A DNA stretch of 64,000 nucleotides from an uncultured virus (IMG/VR IMGVR_UViG_3300002460_000002) (Duplodnaviria; Heunggongvirae; Uroviricota; Caudoviricetes). The stretch spans positions 1 through 64,000 of the IMG/VR virus record IMGVR_UViG_3300002460_000002; one strand, written 5' to 3'. Below are positions 1,177 through 62,764 of this stretch, in pieces. Within the stretch, counting starts at the first letter, position 1; each line of letters begins with the position of its first letter. The notes below the pieces were generated by a model. That model was not told where the DNA came from. It did no database searches and was given only the letters and a program-made list of their open reading frames with translations. Position numbers and translations under genes: made by a program.

Positions 1177-1935
1177 TCACACCACGGGACGTTTGATCAA
1201 GCCTTCCAGGGTCACCCGAACGTCGAACCCCATGGCGACGGGGGTCGTCAGGCCGGTCCAGTCGGTGTACCCAGCGACCGACCCCGCCACGCCGGCAACA
1301 CCGAGTGGTGCGCACGGGTTGAGCAGGGCGCGGAACCCGATGTTGTCCCGCAACCAGATCGGCAGCACGAGCGCCGACTGATCCCGGGGTGACGGAATAC
1401 CGTTCCCCGCGACCTCGACGTTGGTTCCCGTGCTGAACACGTGCAGGCCCGAGCCCTGCGGATACTCCGAGATCGGTCCCTCGGAGTTGACCTTCTGGTT
1501 CACGGAGAACTTGAAGTACGTCTTCCGCAGGAAGTCGAACAACACGCCTCCGTTGACCACCGTCGGATCGTACCCACCGACGTGCGGCGGGCGCGACAGC
1601 TGCACCAGGTTGGTGTCCTGCAGCTCGAAGTTCGCGTTGGCCGCGGTGCGACCCATCTCGCGCGTGACCTCGACCTGGATGCTGTAGATGAGCGCTTCGT
1701 AGCCCATCTGCAGACCCGTGTCGCCGCCGCGAACGAGGTTGGTGTCGACCAGCGTCAGCACGCGAGTGCCGCCGGGGATCTGATTGCCCTCGGCGCCGAC
1801 GAACGCCTGAAGAGCGTTGGTGTCGCCGCCTTGGAACTCGACCGTGTGGTACAGGCGGTCATGGGTCCAGTCCCCGAAGATGATCGGGTACGGAACGCCC
1901 TGAACGCGGATTGCCAGTGTGCCTTGGTTGTCCAT
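1177..1935 (-). CDS. Putative major capsid protein, single-jelly-roll type
   Basis: 252 aa, beta-rich (LYHTVEF, DTNL..G..GL, ALIYSIQVEV, FKFSVNQK, VRVTLEGLIKRPVV). Strong RBS (GGAGAAAAGGAC), strongly biased codons and its own terminator, as expected of a highly expressed virion gene. Confidence 0.55.
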   Translation of the reverse strand: MDNQGTLAIRVQGVPYPIIFGDWTHDRLYHTVEFQGGDTNALQAFVGAEGNQIPGGTRVLTLVDTNLVRGGDTGLQMGYEALIYSIQVEVTREMGRTAANANFELQDTNLVQLSRPPHVGGYDPTVVNGGVLFDFLRKTYFKFSVNQKVNSEGPISEYPQGSGLHVFSTGTNVEVAGNGIPSPRDQSALVLPIWLRDNIGFRALLNPCAPLGVAGVAGSVAGYTDWTGLTTPVAMGFDVRVTLEGLIKRPVV

Positions 1936-9368: not shown

Positions 9369-9881
9369 ATGTCTGCGCCGCAACTCCGCGCCCACACCGT
9401 CTACACGCTGGAAGATCGCGTGAAGATTCTGCGGCGGTTGGTCTGGGCACCGGAAGGTGGACTGAGAGACCCGCTCATGCGCCGGCTCGGGCTCGCGGTC
9501 ACTCAAGGCGTGAAAGCTCGCGACGACATGGGTGAACTCGGCGCGATCTTCGATGCCGTCGTGAAAAATGTCCGCTACACCGGAGACATCGCAAGCAAAG
9601 ACACGTTCCAGACCGCGCTTCGGACGCTACAGTTCGGTGGAGGTGACTGTGATGATCATGCGACGCTTTGCGTCACTCTCGCGATGGAAAACGGATTTGA
9701 GAGTAAGTTCCGGATCACATCTAACACCGGCAACAGCTGGGACCACATCTACGCGATGTGTGGTGTTCCAAAACACAAGCCCTCTCGCTGGGTCGCGCTC
9801 GACACCACACTAGGTATCGGCAAGTTTGGACGCCAACCCCCGATGGCGAAATATCGTGACTTCGCAGTAGGTAGCGGATGA
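9369..9881 (+). CDS. Transglutaminase-like cysteine protease
   Basis: GGGDCDDHA (Cys), WDHIY (His), WVALDTT (Asp) triad pattern. Confidence 0.8.
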   Translation: MSAPQLRAHTVYTLEDRVKILRRLVWAPEGGLRDPLMRRLGLAVTQGVKARDDMGELGAIFDAVVKNVRYTGDIASKDTFQTALRTLQFGGGDCDDHATLCVTLAMENGFESKFRITSNTGNSWDHIYAMCGVPKHKPSRWVALDTTLGIGKFGRQPPMAKYRDFAVGSG

Positions 9882-29003: not shown

Positions 29004-29261
29004 CTAACCTGACACGATCTTGTGCAGCTGCAGCGCCTGCACGTTCGACAAGATCGGGTGCAGACCGGCCGCCATGCGCGCCGCGACTCCGGGCGCCAAC
29101 TTTTTGATCTTCATCCGCTGCCAGAGCGACAACGATCGACCCTTGCTCCGGACTCCGAGATCTTCCAGCAGTGTGCGCGCCTGTGCCACTTGCGCCGCAC
29201 TCACTCTCGACACGGGAACCGTCGGGTCACTGACCGATCGTACCGGAGCCCCGAGGATCAC
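29004..29261 (-). CDS. Hypothetical protein
   Basis: 85-aa ORF starting MILGA. Confidence 0.5.
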   Translation of the reverse strand: MILGAPVRSVSDPTVPVSRVSAAQVAQARTLLEDLGVRSKGRSLSLWQRMKIKKLAPGVAARMAAGLHPILSNVQALQLHKIVSG

Positions 29262-29605: not shown

Positions 29606-29649
29606 GACCGCAGACTAAACCAAATGGTGGTTGGACGTCAACCCCGTCA

Positions 29650-31497
29650 CTAACCCGGCAATCTCTTCTGCAACGCCTCGACCACTTCCTCGATAAATTC
29701 GTCGTCTTCTTCCGGCAAAAGCCGCTCGACCAGGACCTCGAACTGCCGCACCTTCAGCAACTCCATGGCCTGGGGAAACTCGTTTTTCTTGTGCAGGTCT
29801 GCCTGCGCACCCAGAATCGCATTCGCGACGTCGTTGGCATCAAGTTGATCAGCCGCGACCGCCATACGTAACGGTCCGATCGACGGAAAAACACTGCCAA
29901 AGAATACGCCGTCGGGCGTGTCTTGCACCAAGCCGCGGACCGCATCCGGTGTCGCTTGCGCCATTTCTGTGTAGGCCGCCGACACTTCTGCGGCCGTGAT
30001 CCCAGCCGGGATAACAGCATCCGGCTCGACGGAAATCGGCTTCACAATCGGATACACTCGCGCTGCGGCCGCCTCCCGCAACGCGTTCGGATCGTTCGGG
30101 TCAATTGGCTTCGCCGGTGTCACCGGTGTAGCAGGCTCGGCCGCCCGAAATTGTTGCCCTGGAGGTGCAACCGCCGCATCTCGTACCGGCGAAGAAACCG
30201 CGACAGGACGCCGCGGCGGTTGGTACTGCGGCTGTTGCTGCTGTCGAGTCAAGTACGCCTGACCGAGACCTCCGATCTGGTCGATGCCTCGCTGGATCAT
30301 GCCGACCCAAGCCGGTTCACCCTGGTCACCGGCCTCGCGCTGCAGCTTGACGATGTCCTGCATCATCCCCCACATACTCCGCATGCCTTCAAGCATTATG
30401 CTTTGTTCAGGGCCCTTGTCTTTCGCGAGGGTGAGCAACTCCATGATCTTCTCGGGCGGCATGATCCGATCCGCCAGCGCGCGAGTTGATTCCTGACTCG
30501 CGTGAGCCTGGACCGACGTCGCCTTGTCCATGGCCGACATCAGCGCGGTCGTACCTTGCTGGTTCGTTGACATGATCTGCGTGAGCAGGGCTGACAACGG
30601 CGCGATCGGGTCCGGCTTGTGGCTGGTCGCCTCCCGCATCATGTTTTCAAGCCGGTTGTTGGTCGCCGTGATCTCGGCCCGCAGTGTGTCGTCGCGGTGC
30701 CTGGCCGCCGCTTCCCGTTTCTCGTCCTCGAGCCGGCGCTCGGTCGTGGCCAGCTGCGCCTTCAGCATCTCCATCTCAGGGCTCGGGCCCGCAGGCTTTG
30801 CCGACAACTTCTCGAGCAGATCCTCGTAGCGCTTCGCCTGGGCTTCCTGCGCGAGACGAAACTCGGTCCGCAGATCTTGTTCTCGTCGTTGCTCGCGCTC
30901 GCTGCGCAACATGTCCATGACCGCGCTCTCCCCCGGGGCCGGCGTCATCGAGATCCCCATGCTGCCGACGGGCGAGGCCGGCGCGGCACCGAAGCCTCCC
31001 AACCCCGGCAACGGCATGCCCTGGCTCCACTCCATCATGGTGCGTTGAGGCGTTGTGAGAATGCCCTTCGTCGGATCGTGGGGAAACAACGTCAACCAGA
31101 AACCGTTGCCGATCTGCATCGGTTGACCCGGTGTCGCGCCGAAAGCCGTCCCGTTGCTCGGTGCCTGTGTTCCTGGATTCATCACGTCTGAGACCATCCC
31201 TTCATCCACCTGGTTTCCGAAAATCACGGCCCACTTGTCTTGTTCCCCGCCCTCCATGTCGGCGACGGTGAACTCGAACGCACCGGGCCCGTCTGTCCGC
31301 GCGACCTCGTCCATCATCTTGAACACGTCGTCAACCTTCTCAACCTTGACGCCGTTGCGGATCATTTTGTTGTTGCCGACGCCCTTCTGGCGCTTCACAC
31401 AAGTGAGACGAGGATCCGCCATCGGAATGATCTTGGCGGGATCCGGCAACGACTTCAGTTTGATTGGTTCGGCGCTCATCACCGTAAACTCTTGCAT
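29650..31497 (-). CDS. Large coiled-coil/Pro-rich hypothetical protein
   Basis: 615 aa, central E/R/Q-rich helical region flanked by Pro-rich linkers. Confidence 0.7.
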   Translation of the reverse strand: MQEFTVMSAEPIKLKSLPDPAKIIPMADPRLTCVKRQKGVGNNKMIRNGVKVEKVDDVFKMMDEVARTDGPGAFEFTVADMEGGEQDKWAVIFGNQVDEGMVSDVMNPGTQAPSNGTAFGATPGQPMQIGNGFWLTLFPHDPTKGILTTPQRTMMEWSQGMPLPGLGGFGAAPASPVGSMGISMTPAPGESAVMDMLRSEREQRREQDLRTEFRLAQEAQAKRYEDLLEKLSAKPAGPSPEMEMLKAQLATTERRLEDEKREAAARHRDDTLRAEITATNNRLENMMREATSHKPDPIAPLSALLTQIMSTNQQGTTALMSAMDKATSVQAHASQESTRALADRIMPPEKIMELLTLAKDKGPEQSIMLEGMRSMWGMMQDIVKLQREAGDQGEPAWVGMIQRGIDQIGGLGQAYLTRQQQQPQYQPPRRPVAVSSPVRDAAVAPPGQQFRAAEPATPVTPAKPIDPNDPNALREAAAARVYPIVKPISVEPDAVIPAGITAAEVSAAYTEMAQATPDAVRGLVQDTPDGVFFGSVFPSIGPLRMAVAADQLDANDVANAILGAQADLHKKNEFPQAMELLKVRQFEVLVERLLPEEDDEFIEEVVEALQKRLPG

Positions 31498-32607: not shown

Positions 32608-34335
32608 GTGAAGACGATCCACCTCGCCGATGGGCTTGATCTGCCGGCTGCGCAGGCCGCGGCCCAGCGCTACAGCTTTTTCGGCAAACCCGGATCCGGG
32701 AAATCAAACGCGCTCGGGGTGCTGATTGAAGGCCTCCTCGATGCCGGCGAGCAGGTCATCATCTTCGACCCGGCATCGATCCATTGGTCGTATCGCGTCG
32801 GGCGCGACGGGAAAAAACCTGCCCACAACATCGCCGTCATCGGTGGCGAACACGGCGACATGCCCCTGGTCCCGTCTTCTGGTGGACTCTTGGCCGACGC
32901 TCTTGCCGCTAGCTCGACATCAGCCGTCATTGATTCGTCCGACCTGACACTCGGGGATCAACGTCGTCTCGTCACTGACTTTTTCGAGCGGTTCTTCCAG
33001 GCCAAGAAGCGACACCGAACACCGGTGCTGGTCGTTCTTGAAGAAGCGCATGAGTACATCCCGCAGAACGTCCAACCCGGCGAAGCGCGAATGTTCGGCG
33101 CGATCCAACGCGCAGCAAAGATCGGCCGCAACTACGGCATCGGCCTTGCCACTGTTGACCACCGGCCGCAGGAGGTCAACAAATCGATCGTAAACCTCTC
33201 CGAGTTCATGGCCAACTTCCAGCTGGTCGGCGCGCACGAGCGTAAAGCCGTGAAGGAATGGATCACAAACAACGATCCAGAGCGTGCCGGGCTCGAGAAC
33301 GAGTTACCGACGTTGCCCCGCGGCACCGCACAGGTCTACTCCCCGACGTGGTTGAAGGTGTACGGAAAATTCGCGTTTCCTCTCAAGCAAACCTTCGATG
33401 CTGGCAAGACTCCCGAACGTGGCGCAGCCCAGGTCAAGCTCAAACCGATCGACATCGCGGGGTTGCGCACGTCGATGGAGACCGTCGAGAAAGAAGCTGA
33501 AGCCAACAATCCAAAGGTGCTGCAGAAGCGCATCGTCGAGCTAGAAAAGCAACTGGCCGCGAAACCTACCGCCGCAACAAAAACCGTCGAAGTCATCAAG
33601 GAGGTGCACGTGATTCCCCCGAAACTGAAAGCTGATCTAAAGGCGGTTCGCGCGAGTCTCATCAAGATCACGCACAATCTTGAGCAGACGATGACCGTCA
33701 TCCACGAAAGTGCGGCGAAGCTCGAAAAAATCGACGGCGGAAGTTTCGGTGGTGAATACTTAGAGACGCGACCGCATCCGGCCCAGGTCTCGCCACAGAA
33801 ACGTTTCGTGGCACCGGTACGACGTCCTGAATCTACTGACGGAGTGAAGCTGAAGTACGGTTGTATCAAGATGATCAACGCCATCGCCACCAGCAAGACT
33901 GGCACTCGCACCGCCTCTCAGATCGCGACACTCACCGGAATCAAAGTCACCGGTAGTACGTTCGCGAACTACAAGTCGTCCCTGGTAACCGGTGGTTACG
34001 TCGAAATCCTCGGAAATGAATGGGTACTGACTACGGCCGGTGACCGGCTCAAAAACACTGAACACGTTCCTGAAACCAACGAAGACCTCCTCACCTATTG
34101 GCGCCCTAAACTTAAAGCTGGTGCGCACAAGCTTCTCCATTACATCGTGCAAGAGGTTGGCGCCGGAAAAACCATCGAAAAAGAGGAATGGGCTTCGGCA
34201 GTTTCCAAACACGACGGTGAACCGCTCAACCCCGACGGCAGCACGCTGGCAAACTACATCTCGTTGCTGGTCACGAACGGCTTGGTCGTCAAAACCGGCC
34301 GTGGTGAGTTCACGCCCGGGGACGTGTTCACATGA
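32608..34335 (+). CDS. HerA/FtsK-superfamily ATPase (DUF87-like) with coiled coil and two C-terminal winged helices
   Basis: Walker A GKPGSGKS, Walker B LVVLEEAH, GRNYG, HRPQ; promoter TTGACA-18-TACAGG-7-GTG. Confidence 0.8.
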   Translation: MKTIHLADGLDLPAAQAAAQRYSFFGKPGSGKSNALGVLIEGLLDAGEQVIIFDPASIHWSYRVGRDGKKPAHNIAVIGGEHGDMPLVPSSGGLLADALAASSTSAVIDSSDLTLGDQRRLVTDFFERFFQAKKRHRTPVLVVLEEAHEYIPQNVQPGEARMFGAIQRAAKIGRNYGIGLATVDHRPQEVNKSIVNLSEFMANFQLVGAHERKAVKEWITNNDPERAGLENELPTLPRGTAQVYSPTWLKVYGKFAFPLKQTFDAGKTPERGAAQVKLKPIDIAGLRTSMETVEKEAEANNPKVLQKRIVELEKQLAAKPTAATKTVEVIKEVHVIPPKLKADLKAVRASLIKITHNLEQTMTVIHESAAKLEKIDGGSFGGEYLETRPHPAQVSPQKRFVAPVRRPESTDGVKLKYGCIKMINAIATSKTGTRTASQIATLTGIKVTGSTFANYKSSLVTGGYVEILGNEWVLTTAGDRLKNTEHVPETNEDLLTYWRPKLKAGAHKLLHYIVQEVGAGKTIEKEEWASAVSKHDGEPLNPDGSTLANYISLLVTNGLVVKTGRGEFTPGDVFT

Positions 34336-53071: not shown

Positions 53072-53343
53072 CCCGCGCTCTCGTCCGCTACATCCCCCCA
53101 CCGAAAGGTCCCATCATGCCCGTCCAAGTCTGTACCCACTGCAAGCGCCCGACCGGGGCGCACTACCGGGTGACCCGGTTCGACGCCTCTTCAAATGAGA
53201 AGGGCTCGGTGGTAGTCTGTTCGTTGCTTTGCCTCCTCAACTGGGTGTACGCATACAGCACGGCTCAGGGTCTGCAGTTGGCCCAGGGGGTCAGCAACGC
53301 CTTCCAGCAGGTGGTAGAGGCTTTCCGAGGGCTGAAAAAGTGA
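53068..53343 (+). CDS. Small zinc-finger protein
   Basis: CTHC...CSLLC. Confidence 0.55.
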   Translation: MTRALVRYIPPPKGPIMPVQVCTHCKRPTGAHYRVTRFDASSNEKGSVVVCSLLCLLNWVYAYSTAQGLQLAQGVSNAFQQVVEAFRGLKK

Positions 53344-53582
53344 CCCGGCTCTTCGTCGGCAACCTGCACTACGACGCCACGGAGAAAGACTTGCAGGAGT
53401 ATTTCGAGTCGTTGACCTGCACCGTTGCCAGCGTGAAGATCATCATCGACAAGGAGACCACTCGCAGCAAGGGTTACGGCTTCGTCGAGGTGAAGGAAAC
53501 CTTGGAAGAGGCGCTCCGGTTGACCGAAAACACGGTCTTCTTCAATCGGCCGCTCCGGGTCGAGGCTGGCAACCGGAAGTAA
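53340..53582 (+). CDS. RRM RNA-binding protein
   Basis: RNP2 LFVGNL and RNP1 KGYGFVE; GTG start 53340. Confidence 0.9.
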   Translation: MTRLFVGNLHYDATEKDLQEYFESLTCTVASVKIIIDKETTRSKGYGFVEVKETLEEALRLTENTVFFNRPLRVEAGNRK

Positions 53583-54084: not shown

Positions 54085-54339
54085 TTGCGGTATCCGAATC
54101 CCGACAACATCGTACGGTACGGCGGCGGAATGCCGCAATACGTGCCTTATTTGACGACGCAGGCCGGGGCGCCTGGTGTTCCGATCCACGACCACCGCGG
54201 GTACATCGACGTGAACAAGAACGGCGTGACCGACACCGTGGCGTCGCACTACCACAACATCCGAGCCGGCCGAATCGTGCCGAGCGACCGCGACGGGCAC
54301 ACACACAAGATGACCTGGTTGCCGACGGGAGCTGGGTGA
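54085..54339 (+). CDS. His-repeat (HxH) protein
   Basis: TTG start after AGGAG; HDH, HYH, HTH. Confidence 0.55.
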   Translation: MRYPNPDNIVRYGGGMPQYVPYLTTQAGAPGVPIHDHRGYIDVNKNGVTDTVASHYHNIRAGRIVPSDRDGHTHKMTWLPTGAG

Positions 54340-54557
54340 TGGCGAAGTGGTACGCGGTCTCCACGGGTAGCGGATTCGTTGTCGGGAAGACAAGTCGTCC
54401 CGCAGGCGGCCGGTACGCCTTCGGTCCGTACCGCAGCAAGAAAAAAGCGTGTGAGGTCGGTTGTTATCAGGGTCAGGCTCGTACGCCGCGGGGATGTCCG
54501 GTAAATGCGTGCGCGCATCCGACGTTTTCAGGTGCTCGTCGCCGGAGGAAACGTTGA
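54336..54557 (+). CDS. Small basic protein with C-terminal Arg tag
   Basis: Ends FSGARRRRKR. Confidence 0.65.
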   Translation: MMAKWYAVSTGSGFVVGKTSRPAGGRYAFGPYRSKKKACEVGCYQGQARTPRGCPVNACAHPTFSGARRRRKR

Positions 54558-54751
54558 TGAAAAAACGCCGTCGCCGTCGAATCCACCTGGGTGAAGTCTC
54601 CAAAAAGGACTTCATCTCGATCGCCGACGTTCTCTGCCGGAACAGCGCTTCGTCGGCCGTCGTCAGCGGGCTTGCACACTACTTCGGCAGCCAGAATCCG
54701 CGCTTCGACCAGAATCGTTTCGTCGCTGCCACATCGAAGTGCCGAGCGTAA
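54557..54751 (+). CDS. Small phage protein (NPRFD motif) with N-terminal Arg tag
   Basis: MKKRRRRRIHLG followed by EVSKKDFISIADVL...NPRFDQNRF. Confidence 0.7.
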   Translation: MKKRRRRRIHLGEVSKKDFISIADVLCRNSASSAVVSGLAHYFGSQNPRFDQNRFVAATSKCRA

Positions 54752-54754
54752 TCC

Positions 54755-55192
54755 ATGTCCGCCAACCTTTTTAGAAATCAGCCTCTGACGGTCAGCTTCG
54801 TCGCGTCGAAGCCGTTTTCGATCGTCGGCAACAAGATCGTCCTCGATTGGACGTTGGTTGTGGCGACCGGTACCACTCAGGTCAGGTGGTACTTCGAGTT
54901 CTGTGGTCCGCGCCAGGACGCCGACGATCCGAATGATGCCGCGACGACGTGGTTCCGTGAGGTTGACGAAGTTGATGCCGGCAACGGTGTAGTGAGCATG
55001 GCCCAGGTCATTCGGTCGTTGCATGTCAACGGCGGAACCACGGGCTTGACCGTCGGGACGCACAACATCCACATGGAGTTCGAGCGGATCGCAGCCTTCG
55101 GTCGGATCCAGCTCGAGTTGATCACCGGTGCCGGTACTGTCATCGCGACGGTAGATGAAGAGCTTGGAAGCACGCCGCAGTCGTCCTCGTAG
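54755..55192 (+). CDS. Beta-rich hypothetical (possible virion) protein
   Basis: Alternating beta pattern. Confidence 0.55.
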   Translation: MSANLFRNQPLTVSFVASKPFSIVGNKIVLDWTLVVATGTTQVRWYFEFCGPRQDADDPNDAATTWFREVDEVDAGNGVVSMAQVIRSLHVNGGTTGLTVGTHNIHMEFERIAAFGRIQLELITGAGTVIATVDEELGSTPQSSS

Positions 55193-55229
55193 TTGACCGG
55201 GACGGCCTCGGGGGCGTATCGTAGCCCTC

Positions 55230-55700
55230 ATGGAAGTCTTCTCGATCTCCGGCTGGGGTGGCGGTCTTGGTGCCGCGTCCTGCCCGGCCGGCTGGGTCGT
55301 GACCCCGAACGGGAATTGTGGAGGCTCTGCAGCCGCCGGCTACAAGCACCCGCAGGCGACGGCACTGCAACAGGCGCTCAACACGAAAGGCGCCGGTCTC
55401 GTCGTCGACGGTGTGATCGGACCGCTGACAGCCACCGCAGTCAACCGCGCGCTGGGTGTGAATTTGGCGTTGTCGGATGTCGCCGCCCAGGCCGCGCTTC
55501 TCACCAACCGGGTGTTGACCACAGGCGCGACTTCGATCGCACCCGTGATCAAACCTTCGGTGGCGATCGGCCCGGCGGTAATCACACCGCTGCCGGTCCA
55601 GGTCATGCCCGGGGAGTTGCCGCGCGGCGGGGGCTGGGCCCTGGTCGCGTTGAACGCGATGGTAGCCGGTGTCGGAGCGTACTTCATCACCACGAGGTAA
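55230..55700 (+). CDS. Peptidoglycan-binding-like domain protein with C-terminal TM
   Basis: ALQQALN...VDGVIGPLT; promoter TTGACC-18-TATCGT-7-ATG. Confidence 0.7.
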   Translation: MEVFSISGWGGGLGAASCPAGWVVTPNGNCGGSAAAGYKHPQATALQQALNTKGAGLVVDGVIGPLTATAVNRALGVNLALSDVAAQAALLTNRVLTTGATSIAPVIKPSVAIGPAVITPLPVQVMPGELPRGGGWALVALNAMVAGVGAYFITTR

Positions 55701-55703
55701 AAC

Positions 55704-56138
55704 ATGGCGAAGCGTCGTCGGACAAATTTCGGCTCATCAAGTGTTGGTAGTTGGCTGTTGTGGATTGGCGGCGGTATCGCAGCGGTTGTTGTTGTTGGAT
55801 TGGCGATGGTGGCCAGAGCCAAAGCCAGTACGCGATCTGCCGCGATTGCGCCGACAGTTCCATCGCAGAGCCCGTATCTCCGGAAAGACGTCGGGTTCAA
55901 CCAAGTCTGGCAACTGCCGCCGATCCCGGGACAAGCGATGACCACGGCGTGTTTCTCGACGCCCGATGGCATCACATCGTCGTGTGTGGTGCATCAAGCG
56001 GGACAGGGAATCGCCGCGGCGAACGTCCCGCCCGGGATGGGCCCGAACACGCGGCACACGAACGAGGTTCTTGTAGTCCAGGCCGCGGCGCTCGGGTTCA
56101 AGCCCGATCCGTTGCAGCCGGGATGGATTCGCGCGTGA
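55704..56138 (+). CDS. Membrane protein with N-terminal basic tag
   Basis: MAKRRRTNFG followed by a TM helix. Confidence 0.65.
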   Translation: MAKRRRTNFGSSSVGSWLLWIGGGIAAVVVVGLAMVARAKASTRSAAIAPTVPSQSPYLRKDVGFNQVWQLPPIPGQAMTTACFSTPDGITSSCVVHQAGQGIAAANVPPGMGPNTRHTNEVLVVQAAALGFKPDPLQPGWIRA

Positions 56139-56434
56139 AGCGTCAGCGAAAAACATCGCTCGGGCACTCACCGAAAGAGCACGCGCGCAGGGCGAAGCTC
56201 ACAGGCCGTCGCGTGATCGAGTACGCGACCCAGGCCACGTACTACGCCAAGCAGCAGAATTGCTCGACGGCGTTCAAGAAGTACGAGACCGCCCTCGAAA
56301 TGACCGGCGCCATGACGGCCAACATGCTCGCCGTGGGTAGGGGCTTGTCGTTCAATCGCTCGCGCGCGGCGGTCAAGTTGGCCGAAGCGCGCCGCGCGCT
56401 CGGGGACAAGTGCATTTACTTGGGAGGCCGATGA
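56135..56434 (+). CDS. Small basic helical protein
   Basis: GTG start MKRQRKTSLG; ends KCIYLGGR. Confidence 0.6.
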   Translation: MKRQRKTSLGHSPKEHARRAKLTGRRVIEYATQATYYAKQQNCSTAFKKYETALEMTGAMTANMLAVGRGLSFNRSRAAVKLAEARRALGDKCIYLGGR

Positions 56435-56736
56435 TGGCTCTCGGCTCTGGTCGCATCTATCACGCCAAGGGTGCGCGTGCGGTGTACAAACTCGCGATGA
56501 AGGGCTTCGACGACACGATTGCAGAAGCCACGTCGGGGGCTTGCATGAAGGCTCATGATGCGTTGGCGGTCGCGAACCAGGATTTCGGGTCGTTCTTCAC
56601 CGAGTTCAAGCATGCCGTGGGATCGGCGACTCGTCACAGTTTTAGCCCCATGGGCGCACCCCGTATGCGTGCGGCGCTTTCCAGCAAACGCTCACAGGCG
56701 CAGAATGTGTTCGCGAAGAAATGCGTGGTGCGGTGA
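56431..56736 (+). CDS. Small helical protein, probable paralog of 56135..56434
   Basis: MMALG...H...C..A...KKC. Confidence 0.6.
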   Translation: MMALGSGRIYHAKGARAVYKLAMKGFDDTIAEATSGACMKAHDALAVANQDFGSFFTEFKHAVGSATRHSFSPMGAPRMRAALSSKRSQAQNVFAKKCVVR

Positions 56737-56948
56737 TGCCCAAGCGCAAGTCTCGTCGTGATCCTGCCGTGGCCTGCCGCTGGGTAGTCGAAGCCGATTA
56801 CAGCACCGGCGTGAATCTCGGTACGCGTCGAGGCTGGCAGAGAATTTATTGCGCACGTTCCAAAAAGAAGGCTCAGGGCGACGCGCGCAAGTGGCATGGC
56901 GACACCAAGATGGTTACACGAGTGTCGCGCAATCCGGAGGGGCGTTGA
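56736..56948 (+). CDS. Small basic protein
   Basis: TGATG-coupled; starts MPKRKSRR. Confidence 0.6.
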   Translation: MPKRKSRRDPAVACRWVVEADYSTGVNLGTRRGWQRIYCARSKKKAQGDARKWHGDTKMVTRVSRNPEGR

Positions 56949-57325
56949 TGTCATCTTTCCGCACACCGAAAGGTTGTGTCGTGAAATGGGTCGAGCTTCA
57001 CGCCAAGGGGGAGCACGTGGACTTGAGCATGGACTGCGGCGGTGGTGGTCGTGGATCTTTTCCGTCACCGGATGGGGGCACGAGCAACTATCCGAAGGCG
57101 CGCGTGAAAGGTGTCCGGCGTGTTCATGTTCCAGGTACGAGCGTCAGCATCGGCGGCAACTTCATGGGAAATTGGGGTCATCTTCCCGACGTCGGTGTCG
57201 TGCGTCTCGATTTCGTGTTGAGCCCGCGGCATGTGACATGTCGGAAGAAAGAGAAGGATACCGAGTTGTCGTGTGTGATTCATGACGGCAAGACGGTGTT
57301 GTCCGGCGGCCGGAGGAAGCGCTGA
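56948..57325 (+). CDS. Small basic protein with C-terminal Arg tag
   Basis: Ends VLSGGRRKR. Confidence 0.65.
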   Translation: MSSFRTPKGCVVKWVELHAKGEHVDLSMDCGGGGRGSFPSPDGGTSNYPKARVKGVRRVHVPGTSVSIGGNFMGNWGHLPDVGVVRLDFVLSPRHVTCRKKEKDTELSCVIHDGKTVLSGGRRKR

Positions 57326-57600
57326 TGGCCAAGGATCTTCGTTGGGGGCATTTAGTACAGCCTCGCGAGCTTGTTTGTATCCGCAAAGGAACTTCGGTCA
57401 TCCGTAAAGTTCGCGGAAGATGGGTCAAAACCAAGCCCGTGGTTCTGGAAAAAACTGTGTGCGGTCGTGCGCACGGCGAAGCAGTAAGCTATTCGTGGGG
57501 CGGTCAGGGAATGGGCGTGGTTACAGTGAAGCGCCAGCAGTACGCTGTGCGGCCTAAAGATCTTTTCGTAGCTGGTCGAATTCCTGGAAGGCGTCGGTGA
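57325..57600 (+). CDS. Small basic protein, paralog of 58095..58349
   Basis: CIR.G...GRW...VCG...WGG...YAVRP; ends IPGRRR. Confidence 0.65.
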   Translation: MAKDLRWGHLVQPRELVCIRKGTSVIRKVRGRWVKTKPVVLEKTVCGRAHGEAVSYSWGGQGMGVVTVKRQQYAVRPKDLFVAGRIPGRRR

Positions 57601-57794
57601 TGGCCTACCTCGTTTTCAAGAACGGCAAGAAGATCTCCTCCGGTGTTTCAGGCCGGGCGGCTCCGTACGTCTGGACGAAGCGTGAGGTCGATCGCCTGCG
57701 GCGTGGTTCGGGCTGCTTCAAAGTCGCGAACACGCGCACGCAGCGGGTTTTTCACGTCGGCGCCTCGTGCAAGCGCCGTCGGAGGTCGCGTTAG
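57597..57794 (+). CDS. Small basic protein with C-terminal Arg tag
   Basis: Ends VGASCKRRRRSR. Confidence 0.6.
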   Translation: MMAYLVFKNGKKISSGVSGRAAPYVWTKREVDRLRRGSGCFKVANTRTQRVFHVGASCKRRRRSR

Positions 57795-57795
57795 C

Positions 57796-58095
57796 ATGAC
57801 CATCCGTCTCATCGCCAAAGGCCCGTTGAAGTCTGTCAAGCGCGCGGCCAGCCGTTATGGCGTTGCAGCGCGCTGCCGAAACTACGGCGGCCAGATCAAT
57901 CCACCGTACCTGGGACAGCGCAACGAGGTTTCTTGTGAAGCACCCTGCACGGCCGCGATCAAGGTGAACCACTGGTACGCGGAGCGTGCTACCACCAAAA
58001 GAGGCCGTGGGAACACACCCGGCACGTTGCTTTATTTTGATGTGCGGCAGTGTGCGACTTTGGGTGGCGCTAGTCGTCGTCGGAGGAAACGCTAA
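57796..58095 (+). CDS. Small basic protein with C-terminal Arg tag
   Basis: Ends TLGGASRRRRKR. Confidence 0.65.
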   Translation: MTIRLIAKGPLKSVKRAASRYGVAARCRNYGGQINPPYLGQRNEVSCEAPCTAAIKVNHWYAERATTKRGRGNTPGTLLYFDVRQCATLGGASRRRRKR

Positions 58096-58349
58096 TGCCT
58101 GTTCAGTTCTTCTGCATCCGGCCGGGCCCGGCGTTCGAGAGATCGCACGGCCGATGGAAGCACGTGACGCTGCCAAAAGCAGTCTGCGGTCAAGCACGCT
58201 CAGGTTTCATCCGTGGTGGCTGGGGAGGAATGTCCGTGGCCGTGATCAAGGTGCGAGGGAAAGAGTACGCGGTACGGCCGGGAAAATCACTCTTCGCTCC
58301 GAAGCGCGGTTTGTCAGGCGCCGGTCGACGTCGTCGGAGGGCACGCTGA
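58095..58349 (+). CDS. Small basic protein with C-terminal Arg tag
   Basis: Ends GLSGAGRRRRRAR. Confidence 0.65.
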   Translation: MPVQFFCIRPGPAFERSHGRWKHVTLPKAVCGQARSGFIRGGWGGMSVAVIKVRGKEYAVRPGKSLFAPKRGLSGAGRRRRRAR

Positions 58350-58627
58350 TGGCCAAAACCAAAAAAGATCCGCCCGACTGCCGTATCTCCTCCGGTTTTC
58401 CGGATCAGAGACTCATTTTCAAATCTCGATCTGGCAATCACGCTTTGTGGGCGTACCGGCGTTCTGATACTGGAAAGGAGAGTGTAGTGGCCCTCAACTG
58501 CCTATCCGGCTTCACAGATTATCCGATTAGATATGATGACGGGGGCGTAGGCTGGGATCGTCCAGAGGCGTTTCCTGCGTCTTTTCGTAAGAGCGTCCAG
58601 AGGTTGTTCGGCCGGAGGCGACGCTAA
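58349..58627 (+). CDS. Small basic protein with C-terminal Arg tag
   Basis: Ends LFGRRRR. Confidence 0.65.
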   Translation: MAKTKKDPPDCRISSGFPDQRLIFKSRSGNHALWAYRRSDTGKESVVALNCLSGFTDYPIRYDDGGVGWDRPEAFPASFRKSVQRLFGRRRR

Positions 58628-58815
58628 TGGCCAAACCCACTTGCAAAGTAGTCTTCGGCCACGACAGGGTTGGTCCGTTCGCGATGAGCGTCAGGGTGTG
58701 GCCATCGGGTGTCATTCAACGCGAGACCAGCAACGCGATCAACTTCCCGCGCGGGACTCGTCTGACGGTGCGGAAGCGCCAGGCCGCGCGTCGGGCGTTG
58801 TGTGGAGGTCGGTGA
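58627..58815 (+). CDS. Small basic protein
   Basis: TAATG-coupled; ends LCGGR. Confidence 0.6.
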   Translation: MAKPTCKVVFGHDRVGPFAMSVRVWPSGVIQRETSNAINFPRGTRLTVRKRQAARRALCGGR

Positions 58816-59009
58816 TGAAGGGCAACCTGTCGCGTGCAGAAGTCCGAAAGCTTTCGCGCGCGTTGAAGTCACAAGGCTTGAAGTTGCCGCGTGCCGGTTG
58901 GTGCACACGATTGAATGCGCCGGTTGGTGATGTGCACGGACGCCTTCGTCCGGAAGTTTGCCGCGACAGGCACGGGTACTACTACGTCGGCGACAAGGGG
59001 TACGCGTGA
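58815..59009 (+). CDS. Small basic protein
   Basis: TGATG-coupled; starts MKGNLSRAEVRK. Confidence 0.55.
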   Translation: MKGNLSRAEVRKLSRALKSQGLKLPRAGWCTRLNAPVGDVHGRLRPEVCRDRHGYYYVGDKGYA

Positions 59010-59211
59010 TGAAAAAATTCTGCGCGCCGTCGGAGGTGTCGTAGATGAAGCGCATCGGCACCAACCTCCTCGCCGGTCTCGGCCTCTTCGCCGCCGGTGC
59101 GCTCGTGCACCTAGGCTGGGCCCTGGGTGGGTACCTCATCAAGCGGTTGTTCTGATGTCACAAGAAGACCCACCGCGGCTGTCAGCACCTCTCCCCGAGC
59201 GCCGGCAGGGC

Positions 59212-59379
59212 ATGAACCGCGGCATGCACGTCGCGCTTTTTCTGGCGGGTGGTGCCTTCCAGGCGATCTCGGCGTTCGAGGCGCCTTGGGTCGCAGATTA
59301 CCGGGCGGGGCTTCTCGTGTTCGCGGGCGTGCTGCTCTCGGCTGCCAACGTCCGCGGCGCTCTCGGCCGTCGTTCTTGA
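59212..59379 (+). CDS. Small two-TM protein (holin-like size)
   Basis: MNRGMHVALFLAGGAFQ...LLVFAGVLLSAANV. Confidence 0.45.
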   Translation: MNRGMHVALFLAGGAFQAISAFEAPWVADYRAGLLVFAGVLLSAANVRGALGRRS

Positions 59380-59979: not shown

Positions 59980-60276
59980 TCAAGAAATTACCAGTACCTG
60001 CTCAAACATCTTGGTGATCTCGGCGTCGTTGACCGCACCTTCGAGTCGGATCATGCGCCCGCGGGAGGTGATGCCGATCGTGGTCGGTGTTGCGCGAACC
60101 CTGTATTGATTGGCGTAACGTCGGGCGTTCGCGTCTCGGGCAACATCACCCAGGTGCACGGGGATCTTCCGGCCAGCGAGCCGTGAAGCGATCGGGCCGA
60201 AGCGCTTCTTGTACTCCTTGCAGAAGTGACAATTTTCAGCGACGAAGACCAGGACGCGGGGGCCGTTCATACTCAT
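59980..60276 (-). CDS. Thioredoxin-like protein
   Basis: AENCHFCK, YRVRATPT. Confidence 0.8.
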   Translation of the reverse strand: MSMNGPRVLVFVAENCHFCKEYKKRFGPIASRLAGRKIPVHLGDVARDANARRYANQYRVRATPTTIGITSRGRMIRLEGAVNDAEITKMFEQVLVIS

Positions 60277-61726: not shown

Positions 61727-62259
61727 GCGGGTACTTTACCACGGCGCTTGCGAGGCACACTACCTGGCGCAGCTTCACCAAAATCAACGAGACCGTGCAG
61801 ACTCTTGCAGGATTCTCCCCCTACGATGACGTGATCAAGAACCGGGATCCCGATGAGACGGCCTGCGTCGATCAAGCGCTTCGTCAAGGTGATGTCGCTA
61901 GAAGACGGTTCGGGATTTCCCGAGGGGTGATTATGCGACACTATTACACTCGAAGCGTTGGAGAGAATCGCGCCTTTGAATAACTCCCGCGGGTTGACTT
62001 CGACCGATCCAACGGCACCTTTGGAGACCTCCTCGAATCCTACGACGCGATGACTAACGTCCAGGTGAAGGGCGTAGAAACTCTCGCGGTCGGCCGCGCC
62101 GATCTTCTTTTCGCGGAAGAAAGCACAAGCGTCGTCTCCGTTTTTCACTGTTTGTGAGAGGGGGGCCTGCTTGGTCATGCAGAGCCGAACTGTCGAGTTG
62201 GGCCCGACCGGGCCGCAGCTTGTCTCTGTTCCCGGGTCCGTCTTCTTGCGAGGCGCCAC
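61723..62259 (-). CDS. radC: RadC-like JAB domain protein
   Basis: RESF..L, VNPRELF, SHNHPSGNPEPSSSD, VLDHVIVG. Confidence 0.9.
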   Translation of the reverse strand: MAPRKKTDPGTETSCGPVGPNSTVRLCMTKQAPLSQTVKNGDDACAFFREKKIGAADRESFYALHLDVSHRVVGFEEVSKGAVGSVEVNPRELFKGAILSNASSVIVSHNHPSGNPEPSSSDITLTKRLIDAGRLIGIPVLDHVIVGGESCKSLHGLVDFGEAAPGSVPRKRRGKVPA

Positions 62260-62281
62260 GGTGTCAGGATACCATGACCCA

Positions 62282-62764
62282 GTGGTCAGGAAAATCCTGC
62301 GGTACCCCGAAGCGCGGCTGAAGGAAGAATCGTGGCCGGTGACCGATTTCGCGGCACTGCCTGCGCTGGTTATCGACTTGGTGGAAACGATGGGCTCTGT
62401 GAAAGGACTTGGGTTGGCTGCGATTCAGATCGGAATTCCGTTACGGGTGTTCGTGATTCACCCCGAGCTATCGCTGACCAATCAAGTATTCGTGAACCCT
62501 GAAATCGTGTCTGGTAACGGGGCTACTTTCGATGAAGAAGGCTGTCTTTCGTTCCCGAAAATTCGCGTGCAGATCCAGCGAAAAGAGCACGTGCGGATGA
62601 AGGCCAAGGATTCAATCGGCACGGAATTCGTGGTTGACGCCGATGGTCTGTTAGCTCGGGCGTTGCAGCACGAGATTGATCACCTGGATGGGCGCCTGTT
62701 GACCGACTACGTGAGTTCGTCACGATGTGGTCGAATCAGGCAACAGCTTTTGCGCGGCGGTTGA
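62282..62764 (+). CDS. def: Peptide deformylase
   Basis: GLGLAAIQIG, EGCLS, QHEIDHLDG; GTG start 6 nt after TACCAT. Confidence 0.92.
   Translation: MVRKILRYPEARLKEESWPVTDFAALPALVIDLVETMGSVKGLGLAAIQIGIPLRVFVIHPELSLTNQVFVNPEIVSGNGATFDEEGCLSFPKIRVQIQRKEHVRMKAKDSIGTEFVVDADGLLARALQHEIDHLDGRLLTDYVSSSRCGRIRQQLLRGG

What the first reader, a model, noticed from the sequence alone, without database searches (positions are those of the whole stretch)
54336..59009. Array of small unrelated proteins carrying poly-Arg tags behind a Gly linker: candidate cargo-loading system
Seen: about 15 tightly packed genes. Many end in hydrophobic-(S/G)-G plus Arg run (FSGARRRRKR, LSGGRRKR, LGGASRRRRKR, LSGAGRRRRRAR, LFGRRRR, IPGRRR, VGASCKRRRRSR). 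Others start with a basic run ending in LG/FG (MKKRRRRRIHLG, MAKRRRTNFG, MKRQRKTSLG). The bodies differ, apart from two paralog pairs. One body (SKKDF...NPRFD..RF) resembles a small phage protein family that, from memory, normally starts at that point without a tag. RadC also ends DFG...PRKRRGK. Inference: a portable basic tag loads diverse effector proteins into the virion core by binding DNA, and cleavage at the Gly motif releases them for delivery at infection. I know of no description of such a system.
Basis: partly seen in the sequence, partly recalled or inferred. Interest (0 to 1): 0.88.

Follow-up and report, generated by a model that had tools for sequence, protein, structure and literature searches.

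The report
Arginine end tags on viral proteins
In an uncultured, probably tail-less bacterial virus, a row of small unrelated proteins each carries a short arginine run at one end and exactly two cysteines; this most likely sticks them to the viral DNA, but whether they travel inside the virus particle is untested.

Summary
Window 54339-59009 holds 16 translationally coupled small genes. Seven of the 16 end in an arginine run (shuffle mean 0.57; reached in 0 of 5000) and 4 begin with one.

Part of each tail is a by-product. Codons CGG AGG form the Shine-Dalgarno site of the next, overlapping gene. The remaining arginines, the N-terminal tags and a tailed GNAT enzyme with no downstream gene are not explained that way.

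Three related viral contigs have longer arrays of the same kind. In the one body with many relatives (g2, 58 aligned), the tag is N-terminal in 36, C-terminal in 11, at both ends in 2 and absent in 13.

New here:
- 64 of 72 array proteins have exactly 2 or 4 cysteines, and none has zero.
- A thioredoxin-fold CxxC gene lies beside each array.
- The virus has a jelly-roll capsid protein and a HerA-type ATPase, so it is probably not a tailed phage.

Best reading: a portable polycationic nucleic-acid tether, plausibly carrying the proteins into the virion core. Packaging and cleavage are unshown. The two proteases in the window are missing from a 99%-complete tagged relative.

Earlier AI notes of this scan describe similar tails on other viral DNA.

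The parts
54339..54557 (+). g1, 72 aa, net +15, 4 Cys, C-tail ...FSGA-RRRRKR
   Evidence: The tail codons cgt cgc CGG AGG aaa cgt tga overlap the start of g2. Orthologs in G001 and G002 lack the tail.
54557..54751 (+). g2, 64 aa, N-tag MKKRRRRR-IHLG followed by a three-helix body; 2 conserved Cys
   Evidence: 80 relatives. Tags counted. AF2 model with pLDDT 88.6: helices 16-28, 33-46 and 52-63, residues 1-15 coil. No PDB fold match.
54755..55192 (+). g3, 145 aa, acidic, no tag; conserved in G001 and G002
55230..55700 (+). g4, 156 aa, weak peptidoglycan-binding match plus a C-terminal membrane helix; no tag
   Evidence: Pfam PG_binding_3 E 0.0016, below cut-off. PHROG endolysin E 1.4e-4. TM-like segment 135-153.
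55704..56138 (+). g5, 144 aa, MAKRRR-TNFG followed by an N-terminal membrane helix (signal-anchor-like)
   Evidence: TM-like segment 12-30.
56135..56434 (+). g6, 99 aa, N-tag (GTG start) MKRQRK-TSLG; ends LGGR, with the SD in the Gly-Gly frame
   Evidence: Ortholog in G002 begins MKRRRKIRLG.
56434..56736 (+). g7, 100 aa, no tag here; the G001 ortholog begins MKRRRVNLG
56736..56948 (+). g8, 70 aa, N-terminal MPKRKSRR; ends PEGR
56948..57325 (+). g9, 125 aa, C-tail ...VLSGG-RRKR
   Evidence: No relatives in viral contigs.
57325..57600 (+). g10, 91 aa, C-tail ...RIPG-RRR; paralog of g13
57600..57794 (+). g11, 64 aa, C-tail ...VGASC-KRRRRSR
   Evidence: The G002 relative ends YVGAC-KRRRRKR.
57796..58095 (+). 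g12, 99 aa, C-tail ...LGGAS-RRRRKR
   Evidence: The L012 relative ends FFNGA-KRRRRRR.
58095..58349 (+). g13, 84 aa, C-tail ...GLSGAG-RRRRRAR
58349..58627 (+). g14, 92 aa, C-tail ...RLFG-RRRR
   Evidence: The last 46 residues are 87-91% identical in G001 and G002.
58627..58815 (+). g15, 62 aa, MAKPTC...; ends CGGR; the G001 ortholog begins MAKRRC
58815..59009 (+). g16, 64 aa, basic, no tag
59980..60276 (-). Thioredoxin-fold protein with CxxC (CHFC), next to the array in G000, G001 and G002
   Evidence: Pfam Thioredoxin_2 E 3.3e-7. CxxC and the cis-Pro TPT are invariant in the 3 orthologs.
9369..9881 (+). Context: transglutaminase-like cysteine protease fold, conserved in the tagged relative G002. 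Candidate processing enzyme, untested.
   Evidence: Pfam Transglut_core E 9.2e-10. Sequence read. 69% identical in G002; no match in G003 or G004.
1177..1935 (-). Context: probable major capsid protein with a jelly-roll fold
   Evidence: 233 homologs; the 120 listed are 58-81% identical apart from the window's own record. AF2 pLDDT 73. Best match is the SPV1 capsid protein 6oj0: Foldseek prob 0.98, E 7.5e-3; VIA Z 8.3, rmsd 3.8, 145 aligned.
32608..34335 (+). Context: HerA/FtsK-superfamily ATPase, candidate genome-packaging ATPase
   Evidence: PDB HerA 8ziq E 2.1e-11. Pfam DUF87 E 4.9e-6.

Best explanation
The arginine runs are a real, protein-level, portable module. Each is 3-8 Arg/Lys at the very end of the chain. 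At the C-end it is joined to the body by a hydrophobic-x-Gly-(Ala/Ser/Gly) hinge.

The module decorates a fast-changing set of small, basic proteins that carry two cysteines each. These proteins are encoded in one long, translationally coupled operon. The virus is uncultured and has a jelly-roll capsid protein and a HerA-type ATPase.

Mechanism I commit to:
1. The run is a sequence-independent nucleic-acid tether of the 'molecular sled' kind. It keeps otherwise unrelated proteins on the viral DNA.
2. The most likely consequence is that they are condensed and enclosed with the genome and delivered to the next cell.
3. The cysteine pair stabilises them outside the cell.

The virus has economised by writing two of the arginines as CGG AGG, which doubles as the ribosome-binding site of the next gene.

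Shown: the tag exists, is terminal, is enriched, is mobile between ends and between orthologs, and exceeds what the Shine-Dalgarno site demands; the two-Cys rule; the neighbouring thioredoxin-fold gene; the jelly-roll capsid fold.

Inferred: nucleic-acid binding (my odds 0.7), co-packaging (0.4), clipping at the Gly hinge (0.15).
For: 1. Enrichment. 7 of 16 C-tails in the window against a shuffle mean of 0.57, reached in 0 of 5000. In relatives: G002 14 of 180 genes against 3.3, G001 9 of 68 against 1.3, L012 8 of 31 against 0.6. A control phage has 2 of 70 against 0.8.

2. Terminal placement. 29 of 33 runs of at least 4 R/K lie at a chain end.

3. Not only the Shine-Dalgarno site.
- Where GGAGG lies in the Arg-Arg frame (29 junctions), positions -5 and -6 are still basic in 55% and 48%. 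The figures are 0% and 22% where it lies in the Gly-Gly frame (9 junctions), and about 22-31% where there is none (217 junctions).
- In the window, 4 tails have 4 basic residues outside CGG/AGG codons.
- A GNAT acetyltransferase of G002 (Pfam E 8.4e-8) ends ...SLAG-RRRR with CGN codons only. It is convergent with the next gene, so no downstream start exists.
- N-terminal tags cannot be Shine-Dalgarno sites.

4. Portability. Among 58 aligned g2-family members: N-tag 36, C-tail 11, both 2, none 13; Fisher p 0.0015. The tree needs at least 4 changes of the C label and 5 of the N label across well-supported branches.

5. Hinge. Gly lies within 3 residues before the run in 20 of 24 C-tails, against 6.2 expected. 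In the g2 model the tag is coil outside a three-helix body.

6. Common fate of array proteins. Exactly 2 Cys in 56 of 72 (18.3 expected) and none with 0 Cys (8.8 expected). 2 or 4 Cys in 64 of 72, against 66 of 234 other small proteins, p 1e-20. Spacing is never under 11 residues, so they are not CxxC zinc knuckles. A conserved CxxC thioredoxin-fold gene flanks the array in G000, G001 and G002.

7. Virus type. Jelly-roll capsid protein and HerA-type ATPase. A conserved 32-aa super-basic peptide lies in the capsid gene block.

8. Physical plausibility. Peptides KRRR, RRRR and even RRR bind and slide on DNA (PMC4797294, passages read).
Against: - No experiment: no binding, virion proteome or clipped form is available.
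- The array lies after the replication and nucleotide-metabolism genes on the same strand, not in the capsid block. That position is typical of non-structural accessory genes.
- The bodies are basic throughout, so the tag may add little.
- Part of the tail is forced by a conserved junction. Among 20 tails with a 1-base overlap, position -4 is CGG in 15, -3 is AGG in 17 and -1 is CGC in 14. The last four residues may therefore carry no protein-level meaning.
- A HerA-type ATPase suggests DNA is pumped into a preformed shell. That makes passive co-entry of DNA-bound folded proteins harder.
- The capsid fold match is moderate. Z 8.3 is close to the level the tool calls common for unrelated models.
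- Gene starts in the relatives come from my own simple caller. It mis-called several starts, which can distort N-tag and Cys counts.
- N-tags alone are only weakly enriched in G000: 9 against 4.0, shuffle maximum 11.
Confidence: 0.45

Rival explanations
1. Intracellular tether only. The proteins are early or middle accessory factors (anti-defence, nucleoid or RNA remodelling). They use the arginine run to stay on DNA or RNA inside the infected cell and are never packaged.
For: - Position directly after the replication, ThyX, dCMP-deaminase and RRM genes on the same strand.
- Rapid turnover between relatives: only 54 of 174 G000 genes have a match in G001 or G002.
- High basicity of whole proteins.
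- A tagged GNAT enzyme in G002 looks like an effector rather than a structural part.
Against: It does not explain why 64 of 72 array proteins have exactly 2 or 4 cysteines, and none has zero, while the rest of the small proteome shows no even-number bias (87 odd against 68 even). A paired-cysteine rule is unexpected for proteins that stay in a reducing cytoplasm.
Confidence: 0.3
2. By-product. The tails are what a standard junction (Shine-Dalgarno site, spacer, overlapping stop and start) happens to encode, lengthened by slippage of CGN repeats and tolerated because the chain end is disordered. They have no function of their own.
For: - Junction consensus CGN CGN CGG AGG ARR CGC TGA TGG. Among 20 tails with a 1-base overlap: CGG at -4 in 15, AGG at -3 in 17, CGC at -1 in 14 (CGC is about 30% of Arg codons elsewhere).
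- AGG makes up 16-22% of Arg codons in tails against 5-10% in bodies.
- Tail length varies between paralogs and orthologs.
- Almost every array tail sits on a coupled junction.
Against: - Gly-Gly-frame junctions have no CGN run upstream of the same Shine-Dalgarno site.
- The tailed GNAT has no downstream gene and no AGG.
- N-terminal tags exist, and in the g2 family N and C tags tend to exclude each other.
- The conserved Gly hinge lies upstream of the junction.
Confidence: 0.1
3. Cleavable cargo tag. The tag loads the proteins into the virion, and a viral protease cuts at the Gly motif to free them.
For: - The hinge is directional. It reads hydrophobic-x-Gly in the same order in C-tails (20 of 24) and in some N-tags ([LF]G within 6 residues in 6 of 18).
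- A transglutaminase-like cysteine-protease fold with Cys, His and Asp is conserved in G000 and G002.
- Adenovirus offers a precedent. [quoted passage not shown]
Against: - The papain-like peptidase and RadC of the window are absent from G002.
- Only 2 of 24 hinges fit (M/I/L)XGG|X or (M/I/L)XGX|G.
- No clan CE protease was found by Pfam in the ORFs scanned.
- The transglutaminase-like gene sits beside lysis-type genes and could equally act on the cell wall.
- No clipped form is known.
Confidence: 0.15
4. Released cationic peptides. The proteins act outside the cell after lysis, or on membranes, as disulfide-stapled polycations that bind envelopes, extracellular DNA or competitors.
For: They are small, strongly cationic and carry one Cys pair each. 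[quoted passage not shown] That arginine runs themselves carry peptides across membranes is recalled.
Against: - No signal peptides and no amphipathic or hydrophobic segments, except in g4 and g5.
- It is hard to see a benefit large enough to keep 15-25 such genes per genome.
Confidence: 0.05

Closest known systems
Adenovirus core and precursor proteins with the pVIc 'molecular sled' and the adenovirus protease (AVP). PMC4246237 and PMC4797294: passages read. PMC4740752: abstract only.
   Same: - Arginine-rich peptides at chain ends that bind DNA without sequence preference.
- The sled is a short basic peptide with a KRRR core that is cleaved from a viral precursor protein. That it sits at the precursor's C-terminus behind a Gly-containing site is recalled.
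- A virus with a jelly-roll-type capsid protein (that adenovirus also has one is recalled, not from a call).
- DNA held in a protein-rich core.
   Different: - The host is prokaryotic: Shine-Dalgarno sites and overlapping genes.
- The tags sit on dozens of fast-changing accessory proteins, not on a fixed set of structural precursors.
- Only 2 of 24 hinges fit the AVP consensus.
- No adenain-type protease was found.
- The capsid protein matches single, not double, jelly-roll proteins best.
- No cleavage is known.
T4 internal proteins with the capsid targeting sequence. PMC3012670 and PMC7697877: search listing and start of abstract only. Details of the leader and of locus variability are recalled.
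   Same: A shared address label on otherwise unrelated, basic, fast-evolving small proteins that (in T4) are packed with the DNA and injected.
   Different: - The T4 label is a specific N-terminal leader that binds the scaffolding core of an HK97-type head and is removed by the prohead protease.
- Here the label is compositional (an Arg run), at either end.
- The capsid is jelly-roll.
- No prohead protease or scaffold was found.
Protamine-like and arginine-rich genome-condensing proteins of viruses and sperm. PMC6163548: abstract only. Protamine disulfide cross-links are recalled.
   Same: Small, arginine-rich, with cysteines that could lock a condensed nucleoprotein.
   Different: Here the arginines are concentrated in a short terminal tag on folded, mutually unrelated bodies, and each protein has just one Cys pair.
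Shine-Dalgarno sites embedded in the 3' end of an upstream overlapping gene (general knowledge of translational coupling).
   Same: GGAGG 5-8 nt before an ATG that overlaps the stop fixes two codons of the tail.
   Different: It accounts for two, at most four, residues. It does not account for the upstream Arg run, the Gly hinge, the N-tags or tails without a downstream gene.

Membership tests
Adenovirus-type core maturation (AVP with Arg-rich precursors) | Arg-rich, DNA-binding terminal peptides on virion precursors | tested here: inconclusive
   Terminal Arg runs are present. DNA binding and virion location are not testable here.
Adenovirus-type core maturation (AVP with Arg-rich precursors) | Cleavage consensus (M/I/L)XGG|X or (M/I/L)XGX|G at the tag boundary (PMC4246237) | tested here: not met
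   2 of 24 pooled C-tail hinges fit (g9 LSGG|R and g13 LSGA|G). The rest have F, T, S or other residues at P4, or lack Gly at P1'.
Adenovirus-type core maturation (AVP with Arg-rich precursors) | Clan CE (adenain-type) cysteine protease in the genome | tested here: inconclusive
   No such Pfam family was found in the ORFs scanned (45, 36 and 54 ORFs, with some overlap). A papain-like peptidase and a transglutaminase-like fold are present instead. A divergent protease could have been missed.
Adenovirus-type core maturation (AVP with Arg-rich precursors) | Jelly-roll major capsid protein with an FtsK/HerA-type packaging ATPase | tested here: met
   Capsid protein model best matches SPV1, HHIV-2, HCIV-1 and P23-77 capsid proteins (Z 8.3 to 6.2; Foldseek prob 0.98). 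ATPase matches HerA at E 2e-11. Strength is moderate, and the best matches are single jelly-roll.
T4-type capsid-targeting-sequence internal proteins | One conserved N-terminal leader sequence shared by all cargo | tested here: not met
   The tag is a compositional Arg run of variable length at either end.
T4-type capsid-targeting-sequence internal proteins | HK97-fold head, scaffolding core and prohead protease | tested here: inconclusive
   None was detected by Pfam or PHROGs. The best capsid candidate is jelly-roll.
Embedded Shine-Dalgarno by-product | SD of the next gene lies inside the tail at working distance from an overlapping start | tested here: met
   CGG at -4 in 15 of 20, AGG at -3 in 17 of 20; spacing 8 with a 1-base overlap and 5 with a 4-base overlap.
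Embedded Shine-Dalgarno by-product | All basic residues of the tail are accounted for by the SD and spacer, and there are no tails without a downstream gene | tested here: not met
   Extra Arg at -5 and -6 (55% and 48%) occurs only in the Arg-Arg frame class. The GNAT in G002 ends SLAG-RRRR with no downstream gene. N-tags exist.
C-terminal sorting signals (LPXTG, PEP-CTERM, GlyGly-CTERM type) | Signature motif, then a membrane helix, then a basic cluster | tested here: not met
   None of the 7 window tails has a hydrophobic helix between hinge and Arg run. TM-like segments occur only in g4 and g5. The 344-aa protein at 8291-9325 does have TM + KRKRRRRR and is a separate class.
Twin-arginine (Tat) or Sec signal peptide, for the N-tags | Basic n-region followed by a hydrophobic h-region | tested here: not met
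   Only g5 has a hydrophobic segment after the run. g2 residues 1-15 are coil in front of a soluble three-helix bundle.
Molecular-sled peptides (pVIc-like) | Three to four or more basic residues in a short unstructured peptide | tested here: met
   Tails of 3-8 R/K. KRRR, RRRR and RRR slide on DNA in PMC4797294.
Molecular-sled peptides (pVIc-like) | Measured one-dimensional diffusion on DNA | not testable with these tools
   Needs single-molecule or binding assays.

The most novel reading that the evidence does not exclude
A widespread, uncultured lineage of 40-150-kb bacterial viruses with jelly-roll capsids loads a fast-evolving arsenal of effector proteins onto its genome and into the virion. 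It does this with a generic address label: a terminal arginine run on a Gly hinge. One disulfide per protein, served by a virus-encoded thioredoxin-fold enzyme, stabilises the cargo. A transglutaminase-like cysteine protease may clip the label. That would be an adenovirus-like core and maturation logic in viruses of bacteria, joined to a T4-like injected anti-defence arsenal.
Probability: 0.25. Interest if true: 0.85.

Novelty: new variant of a known kind. Interest (0 to 1): 0.68.

Why it matters
If the tag is an address label for the viral DNA or core, three things follow:
- It gives a simple, transferable rule for which accessory proteins of an unexplored virus group travel with the genome.
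- It gives a ready-made minimal tag for loading foreign proteins.
- It links bacterial jelly-roll viruses to the arginine-rich cores of adenovirus-like viruses.

The two-cysteine rule is a separate, testable clue. It suggests that a whole class of phage-encoded small proteins is built for life outside the cytoplasm.

Even on the modest reading, this is a clear case of a protein tail and a ribosome-binding site sharing the same codons, which bears on how C-termini in tightly packed operons should be interpreted.

Tried and rejected
**Family and similarity searches that found nothing useful**
- Pfam and PHROGs on the 17 array ORFs: nothing above cut-off; only weak peptidoglycan-binding matches for g4.
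- Pfam on 39 proteins from the relatives (38 tagged or array-neighbour proteins plus the GNAT): only the GNAT matched.
- blastn of the region against 50,697 phage records: no match.
- DNA polymerase by tblastn: best match 27.8% identity.
- The search for related loci in viral contigs for g3 and g9: none.
- Word-index homolog search for g2: only itself.
- Genome-contig scan for the g2 family: none, so no host clue.
- Alignment A1 was too divergent for the search for related loci. I repeated the scan with 10 close sequences.
- Fold search of the g2 model: no PDB match at E <= 0.001.
- Protein atlas for g12: its own model has pLDDT 0.49 and gave no usable lead.
- PDB sequence search for the 788-aa and 252-aa proteins: none.

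**Claims and ideas set aside**
- Sortase-type sorting signals and Tat/Sec signals: rejected for lack of a hydrophobic segment.
- CxxC zinc knuckles: rejected because the smallest Cys spacing is 11 residues.
- ClpX-type basic degron: considered from memory; no test was possible and it gives no reason for the Cys rule.

**An error of mine, corrected**
- I first read the g2 orthologs of G001 and G002 as untagged. My gene caller had taken an internal ATG. The in-frame upstream sequence carries a basic tag.

**Literature and earlier notes**
- Literature searches with the terms turned up no description of such tags in phages. The library lacks most subscription journals.
- Earlier notes of this scan: no note exists for this genome, and no look-alike of g2 or of the capsid protein appears in other windows.
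- L012's full contig is not held, so the protease and thioredoxin co-occurrence could not be checked there.

Full report
**What is there**

The window is the first 64 kb of a 96,328-bp virus record. The record is classed as complete, with direct terminal repeats.

Between 54339 and 59009 on the + strand lie 16 small genes of 62-156 codons. Most are joined by TGATG, TAATG or ATGA overlaps.
- Seven genes (g1, g9, g10, g11, g12, g13, g14) end in an arginine run.
- Four (g2, g5, g6, g8) begin with a basic run.

None of the 17 ORFs tested matches a Pfam or PHROG family above cut-off. g10 and g13 are paralogs (42% identity, E 9e-15). No second pair was found.

**Is it more than chance?**

Yes.
- With residues shuffled within each protein, a mean of 0.57 of the 16 would have at least 4 R/K in the last 7 residues. 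Seven do, a value reached in 0 of 5000 shuffles.
- N-terminal runs are weaker: 4 of 16 against 0.96, reached in 46 of 5000.
- Genome-wide, 15 of 174 called genes carry a C-tail against 2.6 expected. A GC-similar control, Mycobacterium phage JacoRen57, has 2 of 70 against 0.8.

**The Shine-Dalgarno question**

I took 20 tails from four genomes whose stop overlaps the next start by one base. The codon at -4 is CGG in 15, at -3 AGG in 17, and at -1 CGC in 14. Position -2 is Lys or Arg in 19.

The junction therefore reads CGN CGN CGG AGG ARR CGC TGA TGG. GGAGG lies 8 nt before the next ATG, or 5 nt with a 4-base overlap. Two arginines are thus the ribosome-binding site of the next gene, and the last four residues may be fixed at the nucleotide level.

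Four results show this is not the whole story.

1. I classed all 265 overlapping junctions of the four genomes by the frame in which GGAGG falls.
   - Arg-Arg frame (29 junctions): positions -5 and -6 are still basic in 55% and 48%.
   - Gly-Gly frame (9 junctions, e.g. g6 ...LGGR and g15 ...CGGR): 0% and 22%.
   - No GGAGG (217 junctions): about 22-31%.
   The same ribosome-binding site therefore does not need CGN codons upstream of it.

2. A 137-aa protein of relative G002 is a GNAT acetyltransferase (Pfam E 8.4e-8). It ends ...SLAG-RRRR, written cgc cgt cgt cgt taa. It is convergent with the next gene, so there is nothing to couple to.

3. N-terminal tags cannot be ribosome-binding sites of a downstream gene.

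4. The Gly hinge lies upstream of the junction. It is present within three residues of the run in 20 of 24 array C-tails, against 6.2 expected.

**Relatives**

No cultured phage is close. One body, g2, has 80 relatives in the 1.8-billion-protein representative set.

I aligned 57 of them. The 23 left out were the 21 of 91 aa or more and two 43-aa fragments. Counting at least 4 R/K outside the conserved body gave N-tag 36, C-tail 11, both 2 and none 13 of 58.

N and C tags tend to exclude each other (Fisher p 0.0015). On a poorly resolved tree of the 50-column body, well-supported branches still force at least 4 changes of the C label and 5 of the N label.

C-tailed members end in the same style as the window's other genes, for example ...KLSG-RRRRRR. 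Untagged members are the most distant ones. They include the copies in two complete, unrelated phage records, G003 and G004.

An AlphaFold model (pLDDT 88.6) puts residues 1-15 in coil ahead of a three-helix bundle, which has no PDB match.

Caveat: predicted starts in metagenomes can hide N-tags, as happened to my own caller for the G001 and G002 orthologs (corrected).

**Arrays in related viruses**

Three related contigs carry longer arrays of the same kind. They are G001 (41 kb, 61% complete), G002 (95 kb, 99% complete) and L012 (part of a 150-kb contig, 68% GC).
- C-tails include ...SLSGAH-RRRR, ...GLNGS-RRRRRRKR, ...FLGGA-RRRRRKR, ...FFNGA-KRRRRRR and ...LHGSA-RRRRRR.
- N-tags include MKRRRKIRLG and MAKRRRKTK.

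Enrichment holds in each: 14 of 180 against 3.3, 9 of 68 against 1.3, and 8 of 31 against 0.6.

Of 72 array proteins pooled, 42 carry a tag: 27 C, 18 N, 3 both. Of 33 runs of at least 4 R/K, 29 are at a chain end.

Tags come and go on orthologs:
- The g1 tail is missing in G001 and G002.
- g7 has no tag in G000, but its G001 ortholog begins MKRRRVNLG.
- g15 begins MAKPTC against MAKRRC in G001.
- The g11, g12 and g14 relatives found (one each, in G002, L012 and G001) also end in basic tails.

Only 54 of 174 G000 genes have any match in G001 or G002. The arrays are among the least conserved parts.

**A second shared property, not noted before**

Array proteins almost all have exactly two cysteines. 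The count is 56 of 72, against 18.3 expected from the pooled Cys frequency. None has zero, against 8.8 expected.

Two or four Cys occur in 64 of 72 array proteins, against 66 of 234 other small proteins of the same genomes (p 1e-20). Outside the arrays there is no even-number bias: 87 odd against 68 even.

The two Cys are 11-69 residues apart and never form CxxC. Typically one lies near each end. In the g2 family both are conserved.

A thioredoxin-fold gene with an invariant CxxC and cis-Pro lies next to the array in G000, G001 and G002 (59980-60276 in the window).

A paired-cysteine rule confined to one gene class points to one disulfide (or a bivalent cross-link) per protein. That suggests a life stage outside the reducing cytoplasm. 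This is inference, and the gene sets of the relatives rest on my own caller.

**What kind of virus?**

Pfam and PHROGs find replication and nucleotide-metabolism genes, many glycosyltransferases, an integrase and a ParB-like protein. They find no portal, HK97-type capsid or tail genes.

The 252-aa protein at 1177-1935 has 233 homologs; the 120 listed are 58-81% identical apart from the window's own record. Its model (pLDDT 73) matches viral jelly-roll capsid proteins:
- SPV1 is best: Foldseek prob 0.98; VIA Z 8.3, rmsd 3.8, 145 aligned.
- HHIV-2, HCIV-1 and P23-77 VP17 follow.

The tool warns that Z near 8 can arise by chance, so this is moderate evidence. The 575-aa ATPase at 32608-34335 is HerA-like (E 2e-11 to PDB 8ziq).

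Together these suggest a tail-less virus of the jelly-roll lineage. An earlier AI note (e1-5867214) made the same suggestion for a different genome with the same kind of tails; I tested it here only as described.

A 32-aa, net +17, two-Cys peptide in the capsid gene block is conserved in G002 with synonymous changes.

**Proteases**

Both are absent from G002, so they cannot be a required part of the tag system.

A transglutaminase-like cysteine-protease fold at 9369-9881 (Pfam E 9.2e-10) is conserved in G002 at 69% identity and absent from G003 and G004. Inspection of its sequence shows candidate Cys, His and Asp residues. With two tagged and two untagged genomes, this co-occurrence is weak.

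Only 2 of 24 hinges fit the adenovirus protease consensus quoted in PMC4246237.

**Reading**

The tag is real, terminal, selected and mobile. Peptides such as KRRR, RRRR and RRR bind DNA and slide on it (PMC4797294), so a nucleic-acid tether is the simplest mechanism (my odds 0.7).

The array-specific Cys pair, the flanking thioredoxin-fold gene, the super-basic peptide in the capsid block and the jelly-roll lineage make co-packaging with the genome the most likely consequence (0.4).

Against this stand the array's position after the replication genes and the pump-type ATPase. Clipping at the hinge is possible but unsupported (0.15). A pure by-product reading keeps about 0.1.

**Known or new?**

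The closest known systems are:
- adenovirus core precursors with the pVIc sled;
- T4 internal proteins with their capsid targeting sequence;
- protamine-like condensers.

This case fails the defining tests of membership in the first two. The literature searches I ran found no description of such tags in phages.

Earlier AI notes of this scan report similar Gly-hinged arginine tails in three other viral genomes. Those are unchecked leads, not independent support.

Noticed in passing
window 54339-59009; G002 85500-91700; G001 24600-30400; L012 5200-8860: Array proteins obey a two-cysteine rule. 56 of 72 have exactly 2 Cys, 8 have 4 and none has 0. Spacing is 11-69 residues and never CxxC. Other small proteins of the same genomes show no such bias.
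   Followed up: yes
window 59980-60276 (-); L007 5198-5443 (-); L008 3350-3595 (-): A thioredoxin-fold gene with conserved CxxC (CHFC or CPAC) and cis-Pro lies beside the array in all three genomes, on the opposite strand.
   Followed up: partly
window 1177-1935 (-) and 32608-34335 (+): A highly conserved 252-aa protein folds as a viral jelly-roll capsid protein (best match SPV1), and a HerA-type ATPase is present. No portal, tail or HK97 capsid genes were found. The record is probably a tail-less virus of a large uncultured group; the longest contig carrying each listed homolog ranges from about 1 kb to 133 kb.
   Followed up: partly
window 2538-2636 (-): A 32-aa peptide with net charge +17 and two Cys sits inside the conserved capsid gene block. 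G002 has a 29-aa version with its own ribosome-binding site and synonymous changes. It may be a DNA-condensing core peptide.
   Followed up: partly
window 8291-9325 (-): A 344-aa protein ends in a membrane helix followed by KRKRRRRR. This is a tail-anchor with a polybasic cytoplasmic (or DNA-facing) end, a different class from the Gly-hinged tags.
   Followed up: partly
L036 7830-8243 (-) (G002): A GNAT acetyltransferase carries the tag ...SLAG-RRRR at an operon end with no downstream gene. It is the only tagged protein with a recognised enzyme domain.
   Followed up: yes
window 3668-23477 (-): A cluster of at least eight glycosyltransferase- and methyltransferase-domain genes. In L012 the array is followed by collagen-repeat proteins (L012 8868-12554) and a glycosyltransferase. 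This hints at glycosylated fibres on the particle.
   Followed up: no
window 62171-62764 (+), 53340-53582 (+); L001 7255-7710 (-): Auxiliary genes: peptide deformylase (Pfam E 6.6e-43); an RRM RNA-binding protein just upstream of the array, conserved in G001 and G002; and a dual-specificity phosphatase.
   Followed up: no
L018 22-147 and L022 1995-2120: A 41-aa Ala/Arg/Lys-only peptide (MAKARAAKR...RAKRRAARKAGRSR) lies directly upstream of the g2 homolog in two short metagenome contigs. It is protamine- or histone-H1-like.
   Followed up: no
G002 88690-88902 (L007 8690-8902): The tail ...VGAC-KRRRRKR keeps the CGG AGG AAA CGT TGA junction, but the usual overlapping ATG reads AAG and the next called gene is 271 bp away. 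It looks like a decayed junction that kept the tail.
   Followed up: no
window 59009-59379: After the array come an 11-codon ORF and two tiny membrane-helix ORFs of 36 and 55 aa, each with its own GGAGG site.
   Followed up: no
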